Assembly: GCA_009783415.1 (NCBI GenBank)
Contig: WRHF01000081.1
Span: forward strand, 1-13,180
DNA: 13,180 nucleotides
Source of the DNA: Clostridiales bacterium
GTDB taxonomy: Bacteria > Bacillota > Dehalobacteriia > UBA4068
Direction of reading: 5' to 3'
Shown here: piece by piece, positions 2,119 through 9,692 of the stretch
Layout of the letters: each line of letters opens with the position of its first letter
Position numbering within the stretch: the stretch's first letter is position 1
Notes under the pieces: generated by a model
Databases searched by the model: none
Seen by the model: the letters and a program-made list of their open reading frames with translations, nothing else
Told to the model about the DNA's origin: nothing
Position numbers and translations under genes: made by a program

Positions 2119-2278
2119 AACCTTGCCTAAATCAAATTCATAGGTACTTGTACAATGTGAAATATAACACAAATTCGACAAATTTGCAAGAAAATCTATG
2201 ATTCGCAAACTTTTTTAAATGATAATGAAAGCCATTCTTGGTAAACTAATCAGAGAAAAGCACAAGGGGTTGATAATT
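2119..2278. promoter_or_regulatory. Divergent intergenic control region between the WYL-protein gene and rtcB.
   Basis: This is a 160-bp AT-rich spacer between divergent start codons. It contains the palindromes GTACTTGTAC (2144-2153) and CAAATTTG (2179-2186), and an imperfect inverted repeat CTTGTACA..TTTGCAAG. The rtcB SD AAGGGG lies at 2264-2269. Confidence 0.35.
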
Positions 2279-3511
2279 ATGTTTGTATTGCACAACGAAA
2301 ATAACAAGGCGCCGATTAAAATGTGGCTGCCGGATCAAACTTATGCCGATGAGCTGTGCCTGGAACAGGCGCTGAATCTTGCCAACCTCCCATTTATATA
2401 TAAATGGGTCTGTTTAATGCCGGATACACATGCAGGGATGGGAATGCCGATCGGCGGAGTTATAGCGACTACAGATGTGATAATCCCCAATGCGGTGGGT
2501 GTTGACATCGGTTGCGGTATGGCTTTTGTAGGAACCGATATCAGGCTTGAGGAAATCCGCGGGATCATGACCGGCAACGGGTCAATTATTCAGGGAATGA
2601 TCGGCGATATTCTGCGCAATATCCCGGTGGGCTTTAATCATCATAAAAAAATCCAAAGCTGTACCACCTTGGACGATGCCCTGGAATCAATGAATAAGTA
2701 TGAAGCCAATCCCGAGCTTTGCGAGCAAATCGAAGCGGGCTATTATCAGGTAGGAACGCTTGGCGGAGGAAACCATTTTATTGAACTGCAAGAGGATGAT
2801 GAGGGTTATCTGGGCATCATGGTCCATTCCGGCAGCCGCAACTTCGGCAAACAGGTCTGTGATTATTTTCACAATACCGCCCGTGAACTCAACCGCAAAT
2901 GGTATTCCGAAGTACCCCAGGAATGGAGACTGGCTTTCTTGCCGGTGGACAGCAAAGAGGGAAAGCAATATATCAATTGGATGAATCTGGCCCTGGACTT
3001 CGCCGCTGAAAACCGGACCAAAATGATGCTAGCCGTATCTGCGATCGTTGAAAAGTGGATCAATAAACATACAGATATCAGATTCAGCTACACCGCTGAA
3101 ATCAATTGCCATCATAATTATGCCGCTCTTGAAAATCATTATCGCAAAAATGTCTGGGTGCACCGCAAAGGCGCTACCCGGGCAAGAGCAGGAGAGCTTG
3201 CAGTAATCCCCGGCGCCATGGGTTCATACAGCTATGTAGTGGAAGGTCTGGGCAACGAAATAAGCTTTTGCTCATCTTCCCACGGAGCCGGTCGCAGCTA
3301 CTCCCGTAAGGGTGCAATGGAAAAATTTACCACACAGGAAGTCATGCTTGACCTGCAAAAGCAAGGTGTAGTTCTTGGTAAGCATAACAAAGACGATGTA
3401 GCCGAGGAAAGCCGCTTCGCCTATAAAAATATAGACGAGGTCATGGAAAATCAAAAAGACCTCGTAAAACCAATTAAGAGGCTCAAAACCCTGGGGGTAG
3501 TTAAGGGGTAG
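2279..3511 (+). CDS. rtcB: RNA 3'-phosphate / 5'-OH ligase RtcB.
   Basis: The protein shows NKAPIKMW...PFIYKWVCLMPDTHAGMGMPIGGV, GGGNHFIEL, CHHNYAA and SHGAGR, which are the canonical RtcB metal-site and active-site motifs. It aligns with E. coli RtcB from TENAPVKMW onward. I chose ATG 2279 (MFVLHNENNKAPIKMW) because it has the SD AAGGGG 9 nt upstream and gives 410 aa, against 408 aa for E. coli. The track's 2219 start adds 20 unsupported residues. Confidence 0.92.
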   Translation: MFVLHNENNKAPIKMWLPDQTYADELCLEQALNLANLPFIYKWVCLMPDTHAGMGMPIGGVIATTDVIIPNAVGVDIGCGMAFVGTDIRLEEIRGIMTGNGSIIQGMIGDILRNIPVGFNHHKKIQSCTTLDDALESMNKYEANPELCEQIEAGYYQVGTLGGGNHFIELQEDDEGYLGIMVHSGSRNFGKQVCDYFHNTARELNRKWYSEVPQEWRLAFLPVDSKEGKQYINWMNLALDFAAENRTKMMLAVSAIVEKWINKHTDIRFSYTAEINCHHNYAALENHYRKNVWVHRKGATRARAGELAVIPGAMGSYSYVVEGLGNEISFCSSSHGAGRSYSRKGAMEKFTTQEVMLDLQKQGVVLGKHNKDDVAEESRFAYKNIDEVMENQKDLVKPIKRLKTLGVVKG

Positions 3512-3665
3512 TGCCTTATAGGTAATCGGTTATTAAGGCGTTACAGCCTTATATAAATGCTTGTTTTGTCCTATGCTAGGGGTTTGTCCAAAACGCCCTT
3601 GCGGCGCCGGGGATTTTATCTATCCGGTGTATCGGGCAAAATGGCGAGGCTCCGTAAACGGGGCA

Positions 3666-3740
3666 CCAATGACAGCACGGGGGTTCGATTCCCCCACCCT
3701 AAAAAAAGGGTTAGCTCAATCGGCAGAGCATGTCTCTTGG
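3666..3740 (+). ncRNA. Circularly permuted tRNA-like fold (tRNA-mimic core) directly downstream of rtcB.
   Basis: The elements occur in this order. T-arm: GGGGG-TTCGATT-CCCCC (3679-3695). Acceptor-like 5-bp hairpin: ACCCT-AAAAAA-AGGGT (3696-3711), capped by an A6 loop. Then TA (U8/A9-like), followed by a D-arm GCTC-AATCGGCA-GAGC (3714-3729) with the GG dinucleotide in the D-loop. Flanking strands 3671-3674 GACA with 3731-3734 TGTC, and 3666-3669 CCAA with 3737-3740 TTGG, pair to form a helix in the anticodon-stem position. A 4-nt variable-region analog GCAC lies before the T-stem. This is the arrangement expected when tRNA ends are moved to the anticodon stem. Confidence 0.5.
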
Positions 3741-3805
3741 ATTAAGCTGATAACTTAATCACCAACGGTCAGCGAGTTATCGCCGAGGTTCGAATCCTCA
3801 CTACA

Positions 3806-7460: not shown

Positions 7461-7489
7461 TTGTATTTGCCCTCGAAATAAGCTATAAT
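7461..7489 (+). promoter_or_regulatory. Sigma-A-type promoter for the small peptide gene.
   Basis: TTGTAT (7461-7466), a 17-nt spacer, then TATAAT (7484-7489). It is divergent from the htpG promoter. Confidence 0.45.
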
Positions 7490-7579
7490 ATGAAATAGCA
7501 CATATGCATAAGGGCGGTGGGCTTACCCCGGAAGGTGGTGATGGTATTAACCAAATCCAGCCTGAAGGAGGTGAAGCCA

Positions 7580-7663
7580 ATGAGTACATATGAAGCGCTT
7601 TCATTAATGATTGCATTCGGTACACTGATTATTTTGGTTCTGAAATTCAGGACTAAAAAATAA
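7580..7663 (+). CDS. Stand-alone small membrane peptide, 27 aa: MSTYEALSLMIAFGTLIILVLKFRTKK.
   Basis: ATG 7580 is preceded by SD AAGGAGGTG with a 6-nt spacer. The peptide is a single hydrophobic helix with a basic C-terminal tail (RTKK). The TAA stop is embedded in the 5' strand of a strong terminator. The gene has its own promoter. The 3' two-thirds of the ORF is duplicated at 9421-9477. The ORF track does not list it because it is under 60 aa. Confidence 0.5.
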   Translation: MSTYEALSLMIAFGTLIILVLKFRTKK

Positions 7664-7698
7664 CCCGCCCTGCTGTCTAGGCTACCGGGTTATTTTTT
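7659..7698. terminator. Bidirectional intrinsic terminator immediately after the small ORF.
   Basis: A 9-bp stem AATAACCCG/CGGGTTATT with an 18-nt loop, then TTTTTT on the plus strand. The preceding A6 run gives a U-run on the minus strand as well. Confidence 0.6.
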
Positions 7699-7739
7699 AA
7701 CTTTGGTAGGACTACCGCCTTTAAAGCGGTTGTGCTATT

Positions 7740-7771
7740 GAGGGGACGTTCACAGCGTCCTCTCGGTTTTT
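7740..7771 (+). terminator. Second intrinsic terminator (plus strand).
   Basis: GAGGGGACG-ttcacag-CGTCCTCTC forms 9 bp with one G-T wobble. It is followed by GGTTTTT. A further small hairpin ACCGC-CTTTAAA-GCGGT lies at 7713-7729. Confidence 0.6.
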
Positions 7772-7804
7772 ACCACAATTTCATTGTAGCATAGCTATAA
7801 TCTT

Positions 7805-7832
7805 TTGTCAATATTTTAGCGTATTTTATCAT
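7805..7832 (+). promoter_or_regulatory. Candidate promoter for the radical-SAM gene.
   Basis: TTGTCA (7805-7810), a 16-nt spacer, then TATCAT (7827-7832). It is flanked by direct repeats TAGCATAGCTATAAT (7787-7801) and TAGCATAGTTATAC (7835-7848). Confidence 0.3.
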
Positions 7833-7915
7833 ATTATAGCATAGTTATACTTTTTCCGACAGCCGGATGGTTGTGCCTAAAGAGGAATAGTCATTAATAT
7901 GAAAGGCGGTGGCAA

Positions 7916-9093: not shown

Positions 9094-9369
9094 TTAGAGT
9101 ATTTCTACACTTGTCAGTTCCGCATTTGCCTCCTCTTCCATAAAGCGAATGATTTCAGCCAGCGAACGCTGCCCAAAAGAAGCATCAGAAGATACAAGGG
9201 CAATGCCTATAGTTAATGTTTGCCAAATGTCCTGAGTATCAACTTCAGCAACAGAAACATTAAAACGCTGCCGGGTCTTGTCGATAAGGCTACGCCTGAC
9301 CTGCCTTTTATCTTTCAAGGAAGTTGAATGGGGGATATAGAAAGTTAATTTTGCTGAAGTAATGAACAT
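9094..9369 (-). CDS. DUF503 (YlxP-like) family protein, 91 aa.
   Basis: MFITSAKLTFYIPHSTSLKDKRQVRRSLIDKTRQRFNVSVAEVDTQDIWQTLTIGIALVSSD matches the DUF503 signature (SLKEKR...R.L.......FNVSVAE.D.QD.WQ...IG.A.VS). The SD AAAGGAG lies 7 nt upstream of ATG 9369. Confidence 0.75.
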   Translation of the reverse strand: MFITSAKLTFYIPHSTSLKDKRQVRRSLIDKTRQRFNVSVAEVDTQDIWQTLTIGIALVSSDASFGQRSLAEIIRFMEEEANAELTSVEIL

Positions 9370-9420
9370 TATTATTCTCCTTTATACTATCAAAGCCAGT
9401 AGAGGCTATGTCTAGAAATA

Positions 9421-9477
9421 ATGATTGCTTTCGGAACACTTATTATTTTGATCCTGAAATTCAGGACAAAAAAATAA
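9421..9477 (+). pseudogene. Truncated remnant of the small peptide gene (MIAFGTLIILILKFRTKK).
   Basis: It is in-frame and homologous to residues 10-27 of the 7580 ORF, with an internal ATG only. It has no SD or promoter, and an in-frame TAG lies 7 codons upstream. It is probably non-functional. Confidence 0.4.
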
Positions 9478-9514
9478 CCCGCCCTTTGTCTAGGTTTTCG
9501 GGTTATTCTTTATA
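9473..9514. terminator. Intrinsic terminator. It is strongest on the minus strand and probably terminates the aroQ-fusion transcript.
   Basis: The same 9-bp stem as at 7659-7694. On the minus strand it is followed by TTTTTTTGTCC (7 U). On the plus strand the U-run is weaker (CTTTAT). Confidence 0.5.
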
Positions 9515-9552
9515 ACACCGGTAAGCCTACCGCCTTTAAAGCGGTTGTGCCC

Positions 9553-9585
9553 GAGGGGACGTGCGTAGCGTCCTCTCTTTTTATT
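9553..9585 (+). terminator. Intrinsic terminator, repeat copy B.
   Basis: A 9-bp stem with a 7-nt loop, followed by TTTTTATT. Confidence 0.5.
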
Positions 9586-9692
9586 ACAATATCATTTTAG
9601 CATAGCTACAATGTATTGTCAATAATTTAACTTGTTTCGTTATATTGTTAGAAAATTTACCCATCTATCGGGAGCCCATAAGTTTTATCCGT

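What the first reader, a model, noticed from the sequence alone, without database searches (positions are those of the whole stretch)
9418..9628. About 212 bp of the small-ORF module is duplicated 1.8 kb away as a 5'-truncated copy with conserved hairpin stems and divergent loops
The 3' two-thirds of the peptide ORF, both terminator hairpins, the ACCGC/GCGGT hairpin and the TAGCATAGCTA(T/C)AAT..TTGTCAATA box recur in the same orientation (7604-7817 versus 9418-9628). In copy B the ORF has lost its start region and SD. The stems are identical between copies, but the loop of hairpin 2 differs. This suggests selection on structure, or a miniature mobile or recombination-prone element that carries a terminator plus an outward promoter. 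In copy B the palindromic terminator serves as the terminator of the convergent aroQ operon. The element's promoter-like box would fire antisense into aroQ.
Basis: seen in the sequence. Interest (0 to 1): 0.55.

Follow-up and report, generated by a model that had tools for sequence, protein, structure and literature searches.

The report
Toxin–antitoxin module plus truncated paralogue
The repeat is two copies of a known kind of small-RNA-controlled toxin–antitoxin module (the Bacillus bsrG/bsrE type): one copy is complete, and the other has lost the front of its toxin gene but keeps the antisense-RNA antitoxin gene, which is an ordinary way for such modules to decay.

Summary
The duplication is real: 7605-7835 matches 9419-9646 in the same orientation at about 82-84% identity (BLAST E 4e-59).

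Copy A is a complete type I toxin-antitoxin locus of the B. subtilis bsrG/bsrE/bsrH class.
- It encodes a 27-aa Hol_Tox peptide (Pfam 46 bits, cut-off 23.3).
- Its mRNA matches Rfam BsrG over the full model length (46.3 bits, E 2e-8). Eight sibling loci score above the Rfam cut-off.
- A strong convergent promoter on the minus strand (TTGACA-17-TACAAT) should produce an antisense RNA of about 124 nt.

Across 22 related copies from metagenomes, MAGs and viral contigs, its -10 is nearly invariant, the hairpins covary, and wobble pairs assign each terminator to its strand.

Copy B keeps the antitoxin promoter, all stems and the terminator. It lacks the toxin promoter, 5' UTR, SD and codons 1-9. 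A related contig (L009) carries an intact module next to a DUF503 gene, in the same position and orientation.

Four other family members also have disabled toxins with retained antitoxin parts. I found no transposon-like ends. This is a new member of a known kind, and whether copy B still functions is open.

The parts
7461..7489 (+). Predicted toxin promoter (TTGTAT-17-TATAAT). The transcription start is predicted at about 7497, at AGCACA.
   Evidence: Read from the sequence. Siblings have a TATAAT at the same distance before the conserved AGCACAAGTGCATAAGGGCGGT 5' end. Its -35 matches only 3 of 6, so the scan did not list it. Inferred.
7497..7771 (+). Toxin mRNA of copy A, about 275 nt, with bsrG-like architecture. 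A long helix P1 joins the 5' end to the 3' segment, and the terminator follows directly.
   Evidence: Rfam BsrG RF01412 matches 7501-7763 over the full model, 46.3 bits (GA 55), E 2e-8. MFE -110.6 kcal/mol, z -7.24, with nt 1-32 paired to about nt 208-239. The consensus fold of 12 family mRNAs, including an SPbeta-like phage locus, keeps P1.
7580..7663 (+). Toxin ORF, MSTYEALSLMIAFGTLIILVLKFRTKK (27 aa), preceded by the SD GGAGGTG.
   Evidence: Pfam Hol_Tox PF16935, 46 bits against a 23.3 cut-off, E 4.7e-12. It is 55.6% identical to the peptide of an SPbeta-like phage locus that scores 212 bits for Rfam BsrG.
7655..7698 (.). Hairpin 1 of copy A, a two-way terminator just after the stop codon. 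It is read as the terminator of the antisense RNA.
   Evidence: Stem AATAACCCG/CGGGTTATT with T runs on both strands. In the family, 28 cells are G.U only on the antisense strand and 5 only on the sense strand.
7712..7735 (.). 24-mer CTACCGCCTTTAAAGCGGTTGTGC, identical in both copies. It is the 3' strand of helix P1 in the toxin mRNA and forms a local hairpin in the antisense RNA.
   Evidence: longest shared block. A 20-22-nt core of it was found exactly in 24 loci judged to be family members, three of which are duplicates of one viral contig. It pairs with the conserved 5' end GGGCGGT...GCACA.
7740..7771 (+). Hairpin 2 plus a T run, read as the terminator of the toxin mRNA. It also forms the 5' hairpin of the antisense RNA.
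   Evidence: All 9 pairs show compensatory changes in the family. Twelve cells are G.U only on the toxin strand and none only on the antisense strand.
7783..7811 (-). Antitoxin promoter of copy A, TTGACA-17-TACAAT with an extended -10 TG.
   Evidence: 11 of 12 matches. The -10 is nearly invariant, and a -35 lies at 17 nt in 21 of 22 family copies.
7653..7776 (-). Predicted antitoxin RNA of copy A (SR4/SR5-like), about 124 nt. It is complementary to the last about 119 nt of the toxin mRNA.
   Evidence: The ends are inferred from the promoter and terminator positions. Fold -43.3 kcal/mol, z -3.8. No expression data.
9419..9477 (+). Remnant of the toxin ORF in copy B (codons 10-27, MIAFGTLIILILKFRTKK). 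It has no SD, no 5' UTR and no promoter.
   Evidence: Compared with copy A there are 5 synonymous and 1 conservative change (pS 0.405, pN 0.024, P 0.003).
9468..9511 (.). Hairpin 1 of copy B, followed by seven T on the minus strand.
   Evidence: All 11 of 11 pairs are kept.
9527..9550 (.). The identical 24-mer in copy B.
9553..9577 (.). Hairpin 2 of copy B. The stem is identical to copy A and the loop differs.
9594..9622 (-). Antitoxin promoter of copy B, TTGACA-17-TAAAAT with an extended -10 TG.
   Evidence: 11 of 12 matches.
9466..9587 (-). Predicted orphan antitoxin RNA of copy B, about 122 nt.
   Evidence: Fold -40.9 kcal/mol, z -3.07. It could pair with the toxin mRNA of copy A: ddG -74 kcal/mol, against -147 for the cognate pair and -4.8 +/- 2.1 for shuffles. 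Inferred.
9399..9420 (.). Deletion junction of copy B. These 22 nt stand where the related contig L009 has 285 nt holding the toxin promoter, 5' UTR, SD and codons 1-9.
   Evidence: L009 1109-1392 matches window 9116-9398 (DUF503 gene and its upstream region), and L009 1678-1950 matches window 9421-9687.

Best explanation
Copy A (about 7461-7835) is a complete type I toxin-antitoxin locus of the bsrG/bsrE/bsrH type.

How it is built:
- The plus strand gives a highly folded mRNA of about 275 nt for a 27-aa membrane peptide of the Hol_Tox family.
- A strong convergent promoter on the minus strand, just beyond the toxin terminator, gives an antisense RNA of about 124 nt.
- The antisense RNA ends at the two-way hairpin placed right after the toxin stop codon, so the two RNAs are complementary over about 119 nt at their 3' ends.

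How it most likely works (inferred by analogy with SR4 and SR5):
- Pairing starts at a hairpin loop and spreads.
- The duplex marks the toxin mRNA for RNase III cleavage and may also tighten the structure that hides the SD.

Copy B (9419-9646) is a paralogous module that was an intact toxin gene for most of its divergence from copy A.
- A deletion of about 260 nt then removed its toxin promoter, 5' UTR, SD and first nine codons.
- Such deletions are tolerated, whereas losing the antitoxin first would be lethal. That is why what survives is the antitoxin gene plus the toxin 3' end.
- Copy B probably still makes an antitoxin-like sRNA that can pair imperfectly with the toxin mRNA of copy A.

Shown here: the homology, the architecture, the conserved promoter, the covariation and the deletion.
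Inferred: transcription, toxicity, the mode of repression and any present function of copy B.
For: Toxin and its mRNA:
- Pfam Hol_Tox scores 46 bits against a 23.3 cut-off. Seven of 10 sibling peptides also pass the cut-off, and two more match just below it.
- Rfam BsrG matches over the full model: copy A scores 46.3 bits, E 2e-8.
- Siblings that share the 20-mer core of the conserved segment score 55.6-78.8 bits, at or above the GA of 55.
- A true SPbeta-like phage locus scores 212 bits and encodes a peptide 55.6% identical to the window's.
- The predicted mRNA fold has the long 5'-3' helix plus an adjacent terminator described for bsrG (PMC3834814). The consensus fold of 12 mRNAs keeps it.

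Antitoxin:
- Minus-strand promoters match 11 of 12 positions with TG in both copies.
- In an alignment of 22 copies, the -10 is nearly invariant and a -35 lies 17 nt upstream in 21 of 22. This region is at least 45 nt from the sequence used to find the copies.
- Hairpins covary.
- Strand-specific wobble pairs assign hairpin 2 to the toxin strand (12 cells against 0) and hairpin 1 to the antisense strand (28 against 5).

Copy B as a deleted paralogue:
- The ORF remnant differs from copy A by 5 synonymous and 1 conservative change (P 0.003).
- Stems differ at 1 of 52 positions against 27 of 82 elsewhere.
- Contig L009 has an intact module in the same position and orientation next to a DUF503 homologue. 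The window lacks exactly the toxin 5' part.
- Four other family copies have disabled toxins with the 3' part kept: L015, L016, L022 and L025.

Population and distribution:
- Both copies are present at 99.3% identity in a contig from another sample (L034). Copy B and its flanking genes are also present, at 99-100% identity, in two further samples (L036, L037).
- Multi-copy, tandem and phage-borne distribution is typical of type I TA families (PMC2887945).
Against: - There are no expression data, so both RNAs, their ends and the toxicity of the peptide are predictions.
- Copy A itself scores below Rfam's gathering threshold (46.3 against 55).
- All family members were found through an exact 20-22-mer, so conservation of that segment is partly by construction.
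- The predicted antitoxin (about 124 nt) is shorter than SR4 (180 nt) and lacks its non-complementary 5' stem-loop.
- Nothing shows that copy B is under selection since its truncation. Two strain SNPs in 228 nt cannot be told apart from neutral.
- L009 could correspond by position to copy A rather than copy B, because it carries two DUF503 copies. In that case it is a paralogous rather than an orthologous reference for the deletion.
Confidence: 0.85

Rival explanations
1. Copy B is inert debris. The antitoxin promoter and stems look intact only because the deletion is recent. The locus makes no RNA of consequence and is drifting.
For: - The pattern of synonymous change in the ORF remnant shows that most A-B divergence predates the truncation, so little time may have passed since.
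- Copy B carries 2 strain SNPs in 228 nt while copy A has 0 in 339 nt.
- One truncated sibling, L015, has already lost its -35.
Against: - The promoter matches 11 of 12 positions with an extended -10. All 26 stem pairs and the seven-T terminator are intact.
- The truncated state is shared by strains about 1% diverged from three other samples.
- Neither SNP touches a hexamer or a stem.
- A sequence this close to consensus is likely to be transcribed, whatever its use.
Confidence: 0.3
2. The repeat is a miniature mobile or recombination-prone element that carries a terminator and an outward-firing promoter.
For: - The unit is multi-copy. It occurs in tandem pairs (L014, L023, L026), on viral contigs (L029-L033) and next to a group II intron (L008).
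- Two truncated copies share the same breakpoint, TAATGAT.
Against: - No terminal inverted repeats or target duplications were seen at either copy.
- The conserved promoter faces inward on the other strand.
- The plus-strand TATAAT is absent from most family members.
- The full unit is a protein-coding plus antisense-RNA module with matches to Pfam and Rfam toxin-antitoxin families.
- No presence/absence polymorphism was seen among the four sampled strains.
- The shared breakpoint has roughly a 15-20% chance of arising among five disabled copies (my estimate).
Confidence: 0.04
3. The minus-strand promoter, hairpins and terminator form a cis-acting leader or attenuator that controls the downstream minus-strand genes (htpG after copy A, DUF503 after copy B). 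The small plus-strand ORF is incidental.
For: - Both copies lie upstream of a minus-strand gene.
- The truncated sibling L016 also has a gene start about 45 nt after the terminator.
- There is a weak Rfam Thr_leader match on the minus strand at 7654-7755 (25.8 bits, E 0.27).
- DUF503 has no convincing promoter of its own in the 9370-9470 interval.
Against: - Most family copies have no gene following in the antisense direction.
- htpG has its own 11-of-12 promoter at 7444->7416.
- The ORF is a significant Hol_Tox match and has been under purifying selection.
- The Thr_leader match is at chance level.
Confidence: 0.04

Closest known systems
bsrG/SR4 of Bacillus subtilis prophage SPbeta (Rfam RF01412; Jahn and Brantl 2013, PMC3834814)
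   Same: - Small hydrophobic toxin.
- Toxin mRNA whose 5' end pairs with a 3' segment in a long helix P1, directly followed by the terminator.
- Stop codon at the base of the hairpin that is the antitoxin's terminator on the other strand.
- Convergent antisense RNA overlapping the 3' end by about 120 nt.
- Full-length match to the Rfam model.
   Different: - The peptide is 27 aa, against 38 aa for BsrG, and resembles the shorter peptides of the class.
- The antitoxin promoter sits right after the toxin terminator. The predicted antitoxin is therefore about 124 nt, against 180 nt, and lacks SR4's non-complementary 5' stem-loop.
- Copy A scores below Rfam's cut-off.
- The host is an uncultured Clostridiales bacterium.
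bsrE/SR5 and bsrH/as-bsrH of B. subtilis (P6 prophage, skin element) and the SPbeta-like phage locus L039
   Same: - Toxin length class: 27-30 aa with an MST(F/Y)(Q/E)AL..LM..FG motif.
- The L039 peptide MSTFQALMLMLAFGSFIIALLTYINKK is 55.6% identical to the window's and lies in an RNA scoring 212 bits for Rfam BsrG.
- The review PMC6562991 notes that bsrG/SR4-type loci can carry BsrE/H-type peptides and that the bsrG and bsrE RNAs fold alike.
   Different: - Sequence divergence.
- The C-terminal half of the window peptide (LIILVLKFRTKK) differs.
- The mechanism known for SR5 is mRNA decay only. Which mode applies here is unknown.
Decayed chromosomal type I loci and duplicated type I loci in general (Fozo et al. 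2010, PMC2887945; hok/sok remnants in E. coli K-12, from my own knowledge)
   Same: - Type I modules are often tandemly or locally duplicated.
- Copies vary between strains.
- Toxins are often the part that is disabled while the antisense gene persists (for the duplication tendency).
   Different: - Those are different toxin families.
- Here the decay is a clean 5' deletion rather than an IS insertion or a point mutation.
Type I toxin-antitoxin systems of Clostridia (C. difficile CD0956.2/RCd10 and relatives; PMC6563280, PMC5961336)
   Same: Small membrane toxins with convergent antisense RNAs in Clostridia, often in prophages.
   Different: I found no link to those families here. The present peptides match Hol_Tox and the mRNAs match Rfam BsrG. 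I did not compare them directly with the C. difficile systems.

Membership tests
Pfam PF16935 Hol_Tox (putative holin-like toxin) | Score at or above the curated whole-protein cut-off (23.3 bits). | tested here: met
   The copy A peptide scores 46 bits, E 4.7e-12. Seven of 10 sibling peptides pass the cut-off and two more are just below it. The copy B remnant is too short to test (18 aa; the tool needs 20).
Rfam RF01412 BsrG (toxin mRNA) | Covariance-model score at or above the gathering score (55 bits). | tested here: not met
   Copy A scores 46.3 bits, E 2e-8, with a full-length match 1-259. Copy B gives no match. Siblings with the same architecture and the same 20-mer core do pass: L024 78.8, L018 75.7, L026 68.1 and 66.4, L022 57.3, L029 56.7, L028 56.6, L023 55.6. 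Membership of copy A therefore rests on homology to members, not on its own score.
bsrG/SR4-type type I toxin-antitoxin system | Toxin mRNA with a long 5'-3' helix (P1) followed at once by the terminator stem-loop. | tested here: met
   MFE fold of 7497-7772. Consensus fold of 12 mRNAs including the SPbeta-like phage locus. Description of bsrG mRNA in PMC3834814.
bsrG/SR4-type type I toxin-antitoxin system | Antisense RNA gene convergent with the toxin gene and overlapping its 3' end by about 100-140 nt. | tested here: met
   By sequence only. Minus-strand promoter matching 11 of 12 positions in both copies. The -10 is nearly invariant with a -35 at 17 nt in 21 of 22 copies. Terminator with antisense-specific G.U pairs. 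Predicted overlap about 119 nt. Transcription was not observed.
bsrG/SR4-type type I toxin-antitoxin system | The peptide is toxic when overproduced, and the antisense RNA neutralises it (mRNA decay through RNase III and/or block of translation). | not testable with these tools
   This needs expression experiments.
Complete type I toxin-antitoxin locus (applied to copy B) | Translatable toxin ORF with start codon, SD and promoter. | tested here: not met
   Homology starts at codon 10. No SD, 5' UTR or promoter is present. About 260 nt are missing relative to L009. Copy B is a toxin-less remnant with an antitoxin gene.
Miniature transposable element (MITE-like) | Terminal inverted repeats and target-site duplication at the ends of the unit. 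| tested here: not met
   No inverted repeat joins the ends of either copy. The only inverted pair involving them (I18) is the promoter palindrome shared between copies. The flanks share no duplicated sequence.

The most novel reading that the evidence does not exclude
The toxin-less copy B is a maintained orphan antitoxin, not a relic. On this reading, its sRNA acts in trans as a spare or immunity antitoxin against the copy A toxin mRNA, or against incoming phage-borne bsrE/G-type modules. Read-through of its terminator also supplies transcription to the DUF503 gene, which has no convincing promoter of its own. Recurrent loss of the toxin with retention of the antitoxin (5 of the 26 or so distinct family copies examined, two with the same breakpoint) would then reflect selection for anti-addiction elements.
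Probability: 0.15. Interest if true: 0.5.

Novelty: new member of a known kind. Interest (0 to 1): 0.25.

Why it matters
- It explains an odd-looking repeat with conserved hairpins as ordinary biology: a bsrG/bsrE-class type I toxin-antitoxin module and a decayed paralogue.
- It extends this class, studied almost only in Bacillus prophages, to uncultured Clostridiales and Defluviitaleaceae genomes and their viral contigs. It also provides an alignment with clear covariation and a conserved antitoxin promoter, which could seed an Rfam model for the antitoxin.
- The set of toxin-disabled, antitoxin-retaining copies is a small natural data set on how such modules decay.
- None of this changes current understanding of the class.

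Tried and rejected
- **Synteny through the radical SAM gene between the copies.** The closest homologues are at most 74% identical. Their contigs (L002-L006) share no neighbours and have no such module, so they say nothing about the origin of the repeat.
- **DNA search of the phage collection with copy A.** Only three chance-level fragments were found.
- **A third copy in the window.** The nhmmer family profile finds only the two.
- **Residual homology left of the copy B breakpoint.** The MAFFT alignment suggested a decayed SD and start codon plus a 14-nt internal deletion. Local alignment scores against copy A and L009 are no better than shuffles, so I dropped this.
- **Constraint on copy B from strain SNPs.** Copy B has 2 SNPs in 228 nt against 5.2 expected at the synonymous rate (P 0.11). 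Other intergenic DNA is also far below that rate (2 in 631 nt), so the test has no power.
- **Which copy is closer to L009's module.** A-B is 84.3%, B-L009 84.5% and A-L009 81.6%. This is not resolved.
- **Weak Rfam matches.** rli28 on the plus strand (36.6 bits, E 0.12) and Thr_leader on the minus strand (25.8 bits, E 0.27) overlap copy A. I treat both as noise; the rli28 match covers the promoter, 5' UTR, SD and most of the small ORF.
- **Chance hits to the 20-mer.** Three genome hits (L019, L020, L027) lie in coding DNA without the surrounding architecture.
Full report
**1. The observation**

The window holds one collinear direct repeat, 7605-7835 versus 9419-9646.
- Start-to-start spacing is 1811-1815 nt (families D1-D4 and D6; alignment).
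- BLASTN gives 82% identity over 233 nt, E 4e-59.
- A family profile finds no third copy.

All the listed parts recur:
- the last 18 codons of the small ORF
- hairpin 1 (7655-7698 / 9468-9511)
- an identical 24-mer containing the ACCGC/GCGGT hairpin (7712-7735 / 9527-9550)
- hairpin 2 (7740-7764 / 9553-9577)
- the TAGCATAGCTA(T/C)AAT..TTGTCAATA box

Copy B has no start codon, SD or 5' UTR. Between the copies, 1 of 52 stem positions differs (A-U to G.U) against 27 of 82 other transcribed positions (P = 5e-6).

**2. What copy A is**

*The toxin.* The small ORF 7580-7663 encodes MSTYEALSLMIAFGTLIILVLKFRTKK. It matches Pfam Hol_Tox at 46 bits against a cut-off of 23.3.

*The toxin mRNA.*
[quoted passage not shown] The score is 46.3 bits, E 2e-8, which is below the gathering score of 55.
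- The RNA predicted from about 7497 to about 7771 folds at -110.6 kcal/mol (z = -7.2). Its first about 32 nt pair with nt about 208-239, and the terminator follows directly.
- That is the architecture determined experimentally for bsrG mRNA: helix P1 between nt 1-35 and 232-262, then the terminator SL4 (PMC3834814).

*The antitoxin promoter.*
- On the minus strand the scan finds TTGACA-17-TACAAT with an extended -10 TG at 7811->7783. The matching TTGACA-17-TAAAAT lies at 9622->9594 in copy B.
It fires into the element, not out of it.
- An RNA starting near 7776 would run through hairpin 2, the conserved hairpin and hairpin 1. On that strand hairpin 1 is followed by six T.
- The result is an antisense RNA of about 124 nt complementary to the last about 119 nt of the toxin mRNA (fold).
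- The B. subtilis antitoxins overlap their toxin mRNAs by 100-140 nt at the 3' ends in the same way (PMC6562991).

**3. Related sequences**

*Source.* The window is a metagenome contig, ENA ERZ27257320 k141_4959478. NCBI labels its proteins 'MAG: Clostridiales bacterium'.

*How the family was found.* I searched for a 20-22-nt core of the 24-mer.
- It occurs exactly in 12 JGI metagenome contigs.
- It occurs in 7 contigs of Defluviitaleaceae and Eubacteriales MAGs, plus 3 chance hits in coding DNA.
- It occurs in 5 IMG/VR viral contigs.
- Some MAGs carry it on several contigs or as tandem pairs (L014, L023, L026).

*Shared plan.* All true hits have the same layout:
- a TATAAT promoter
- a conserved 5' end, AGCACAAGTGCATAAGGGCGGT
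- an SD
- a 26-36-aa peptide ending in lysines
- hairpin 1, the conserved segment, hairpin 2 with a T run, then a minus-strand promoter

*Family matches.*
- Seven of ten sibling peptides pass the Hol_Tox cut-off, and two more match just below it.
- Eight sibling loci score 55.6-78.8 bits for Rfam BsrG, at or above the cut-off.
- The window peptide also finds SPbeta-like Bacillus phages by tblastn.
- In one of them the matched locus scores 212 bits for Rfam BsrG. It encodes MSTFQALMLMLAFGSFIIALLTYINKK, which is 55.6% identical to the window peptide.
- The toxin is therefore of the short BsrE/BsrH-like kind inside a bsrG-type RNA. The B. subtilis review describes this combination for other Bacillus species.

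**4. Evidence for the antisense gene and for strand assignment**

I aligned 22 distinct copies in antisense orientation (A2).
- The most conserved feature outside the search anchor is the minus-strand -10 (TA.AAT invariant). A TTGACA-like -35 lies 17 nt upstream in 21 of 22 copies.
- This promoter is at least 45 nt from the anchor, so it is independent evidence.

The three hairpins are supported by covariation:
- 93.5% of cells are paired.
- 13 pairs have changes on both sides, including all 9 pairs of hairpin 2.
- The covariation score is 0.331, against at most 0.175 with slid partners. None of 500 shuffles reaches the observed value.

G.U pairs are strand-specific, so they show which strand each hairpin serves.
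- Hairpin 2 has 12 cells that pair only on the toxin strand and none that pair only on the antisense strand. It is the toxin mRNA terminator.
- Hairpin 1 has 28 cells that pair only on the antisense strand and 5 only on the sense strand. It is the antitoxin terminator.

The extreme conservation of the 24-mer has a reason beyond ascertainment. It is the 3' strand of helix P1, pairing with the conserved 5' end. There is a compensatory switch between CTTACC/GGTAAG and CTTGC/GCAAG lineages. The same segment also forms a local hairpin in the antisense RNA.

**5. What copy B is**

*What is kept and what is lost.*
- Kept: the antitoxin promoter, all 26 stem pairs, the seven-T terminator and toxin codons 10-27.
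- Lost: everything 5' of codon 10.

*Timing of the truncation.* The ORF remnant differs from copy A by five synonymous changes and one conservative change (pS 0.405, pN 0.024; P = 0.003 under neutrality). The two toxin genes therefore diverged while both were under selection as proteins, and the truncation is recent relative to that divergence.

*Evidence for a deletion.* A related contig, L009, has a DUF503 homologue, then an intact module, then a second DUF503 homologue.
- Its DUF503 gene and upstream region (1109-1392) align with window 9116-9398.
- Its module from codon 10 onward (1678-1950) aligns with window 9421-9687.
- The window therefore lacks the 285 nt that hold the toxin promoter, 5' UTR, SD and codons 1-9, and has 22 unrelated nt instead.
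- L009 has two DUF503 copies, so it may be a paralogous rather than an orthologous reference. Either way it shows the undeleted state of a DUF503-adjacent module.

*Other disabled copies in the family*:
- L015 is truncated at the same TAATGAT.
- L016 has its 5' UTR and ORF deleted.
- L022 has lost its 5' UTR, SD and stop codon.
- L025 has its SD region deleted.
- This bias is expected, because a cell survives loss of the toxin but not loss of the antitoxin alone.

*Population data.* The whole locus with both copies is present at 99.3% identity in a contig from another sample (L034). Copy B with its two flanking genes is also present in two further samples, at 99.0% (L036) and 100% (L037).
- Copy A is identical in L034, the only other contig that covers it.
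- Copy B has two SNPs (in L034 and L036), in a linker and in the promoter spacer.
- There is no presence/absence polymorphism.

**6. Mechanism**

*Shown:* the homology to the bsrG/bsrE class, the RNA architecture, the conserved convergent promoter, the covariation and the deletion.

*Inferred by analogy with SR4 and SR5:*
- The antisense RNA pairs with the 3' part of the toxin mRNA, starting at a hairpin loop.
- The duplex is cut by RNase III.
- Pairing may also stabilise sequestration of the SD.
- The family consensus fold pairs the SD (GGGGGU) with the CCGCCC right after the stop codon. That is a prediction only.

*Copy B.* It most likely still yields an sRNA of about 122 nt. In silico it can pair with the toxin mRNA of copy A: ddG -74 kcal/mol, against -147 for the cognate pair and -4.8 +/- 2.1 for shuffles. 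Whether that matters in the cell is unknown. The strain SNP data cannot tell constraint from drift.

**7. Rivals**

*A miniature mobile element with an outward promoter.*
- There are no terminal repeats or target duplications.
- The conserved promoter faces inward.
- The plus-strand TATAAT is confined to this sub-lineage.
- The unit matches Pfam and Rfam toxin-antitoxin families.

*A minus-strand leader for htpG and DUF503.*
- Most family copies have no downstream gene in that direction.
- htpG has its own strong promoter.
- The ORF has been under protein-level selection.

*Copy B as inert debris.* This remains a real possibility for its present function. It does not change what copy B is.

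**8. Novelty and verdict**

- Type I toxin-antitoxin loci of this class are well described: their tendency to duplicate, their association with prophages, and TxpA-like sequences in Clostridiales (PMC2887945; PMC6562991).
- This is a new member of a known kind in an uncultured lineage, plus a decayed paralogue.
- The one mildly unusual point is the recurrent retention of antitoxin genes after toxin loss, with two copies sharing a breakpoint. Chance is not excluded; I estimate a 15-20% probability of such a coincidence among five disabled copies.
- Interest is low to moderate.

Noticed in passing
window 3660-3800 (+), just 3' of rtcB (2219-3511): tRNA-like pieces lie here: a T-arm GGGGGTTCGATTCCCCC, an acceptor/D-arm-like GGGTTAGCTCAATCGGCAGAGC, and a second T-arm GAGGTTCGAATCCTC. 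Rfam gives sub-threshold matches to YrlA (Y RNA-like; 27.2 bits, E 0.025) and to the tmRNA 3' end (18.5 bits). ARAGORN calls no tRNA. Two WYL-domain genes lie upstream. This could be a Y-RNA-like or tRNA-mimic partner of the RtcB ligase.
   Followed up: partly
L009 1090-2244 (JGI contig Ga0123356_10160580): The arrangement is a frameshifted DUF503 copy, then an intact toxin-antitoxin module, then a second DUF503 copy whose product is 91% identical to the window's DUF503. This suggests an old tandem duplication of a DUF503-plus-module unit in this lineage. The 5' UTR of this module also carries an internal tandem duplication of about 40 nt.
   Followed up: partly
window 9419 and L015 about 225 (breakpoints): Two independently truncated copies lose homology to their intact relatives at the same TAATGAT (Leu9-Met10-Ile11). 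They are window copy B and L015, a truncated relative of L010. In L015 the TAA serves as the stop codon of the upstream gene and overlaps the internal ATG as TAATG. Chance is not excluded.
   Followed up: partly
window 7787-7801, 7837-7851, 9598-9612 (+): The box TAGCATAG(C/T)TA(T/C)A(A/C)T occurs three times against 0.01 expected. Two copies overlap the -10 of the antitoxin promoters and are part of a near-palindrome. The third lies about 65 nt upstream of the radical SAM gene start. It could be an operator. Among relatives only L009 has a similar box.
   Followed up: no
L008 1403-1518 and 3125-3200: A group II intron starts about 15 nt from the 5' end of this contig's toxin-antitoxin copy. 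Rfam scores are 106 bits for group-II-D1D4-2 and 59 bits for Intron_gpII.
   Followed up: no
L022 2353-2585; L025 5452-5686; L016 731-935: Other ways the toxin is disabled while the antitoxin part is kept. L022 lacks the 5' UTR and SD, and an extra A in the A run removes its stop codon. L025 has its SD region deleted, so the 5' UTR runs straight into the ATG. L016 has the toxin promoter -10 fused directly to the end of the ORF.
   Followed up: partly
window 9370-9470 (-), upstream of DUF503 (9094-9369): There is no convincing promoter for DUF503. The only candidates are two 9-of-12 matches, one of which would start inside the SD. Transcription may come from read-through of copy B's terminator or from the upstream aromatic amino-acid operon.
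   Followed up: no
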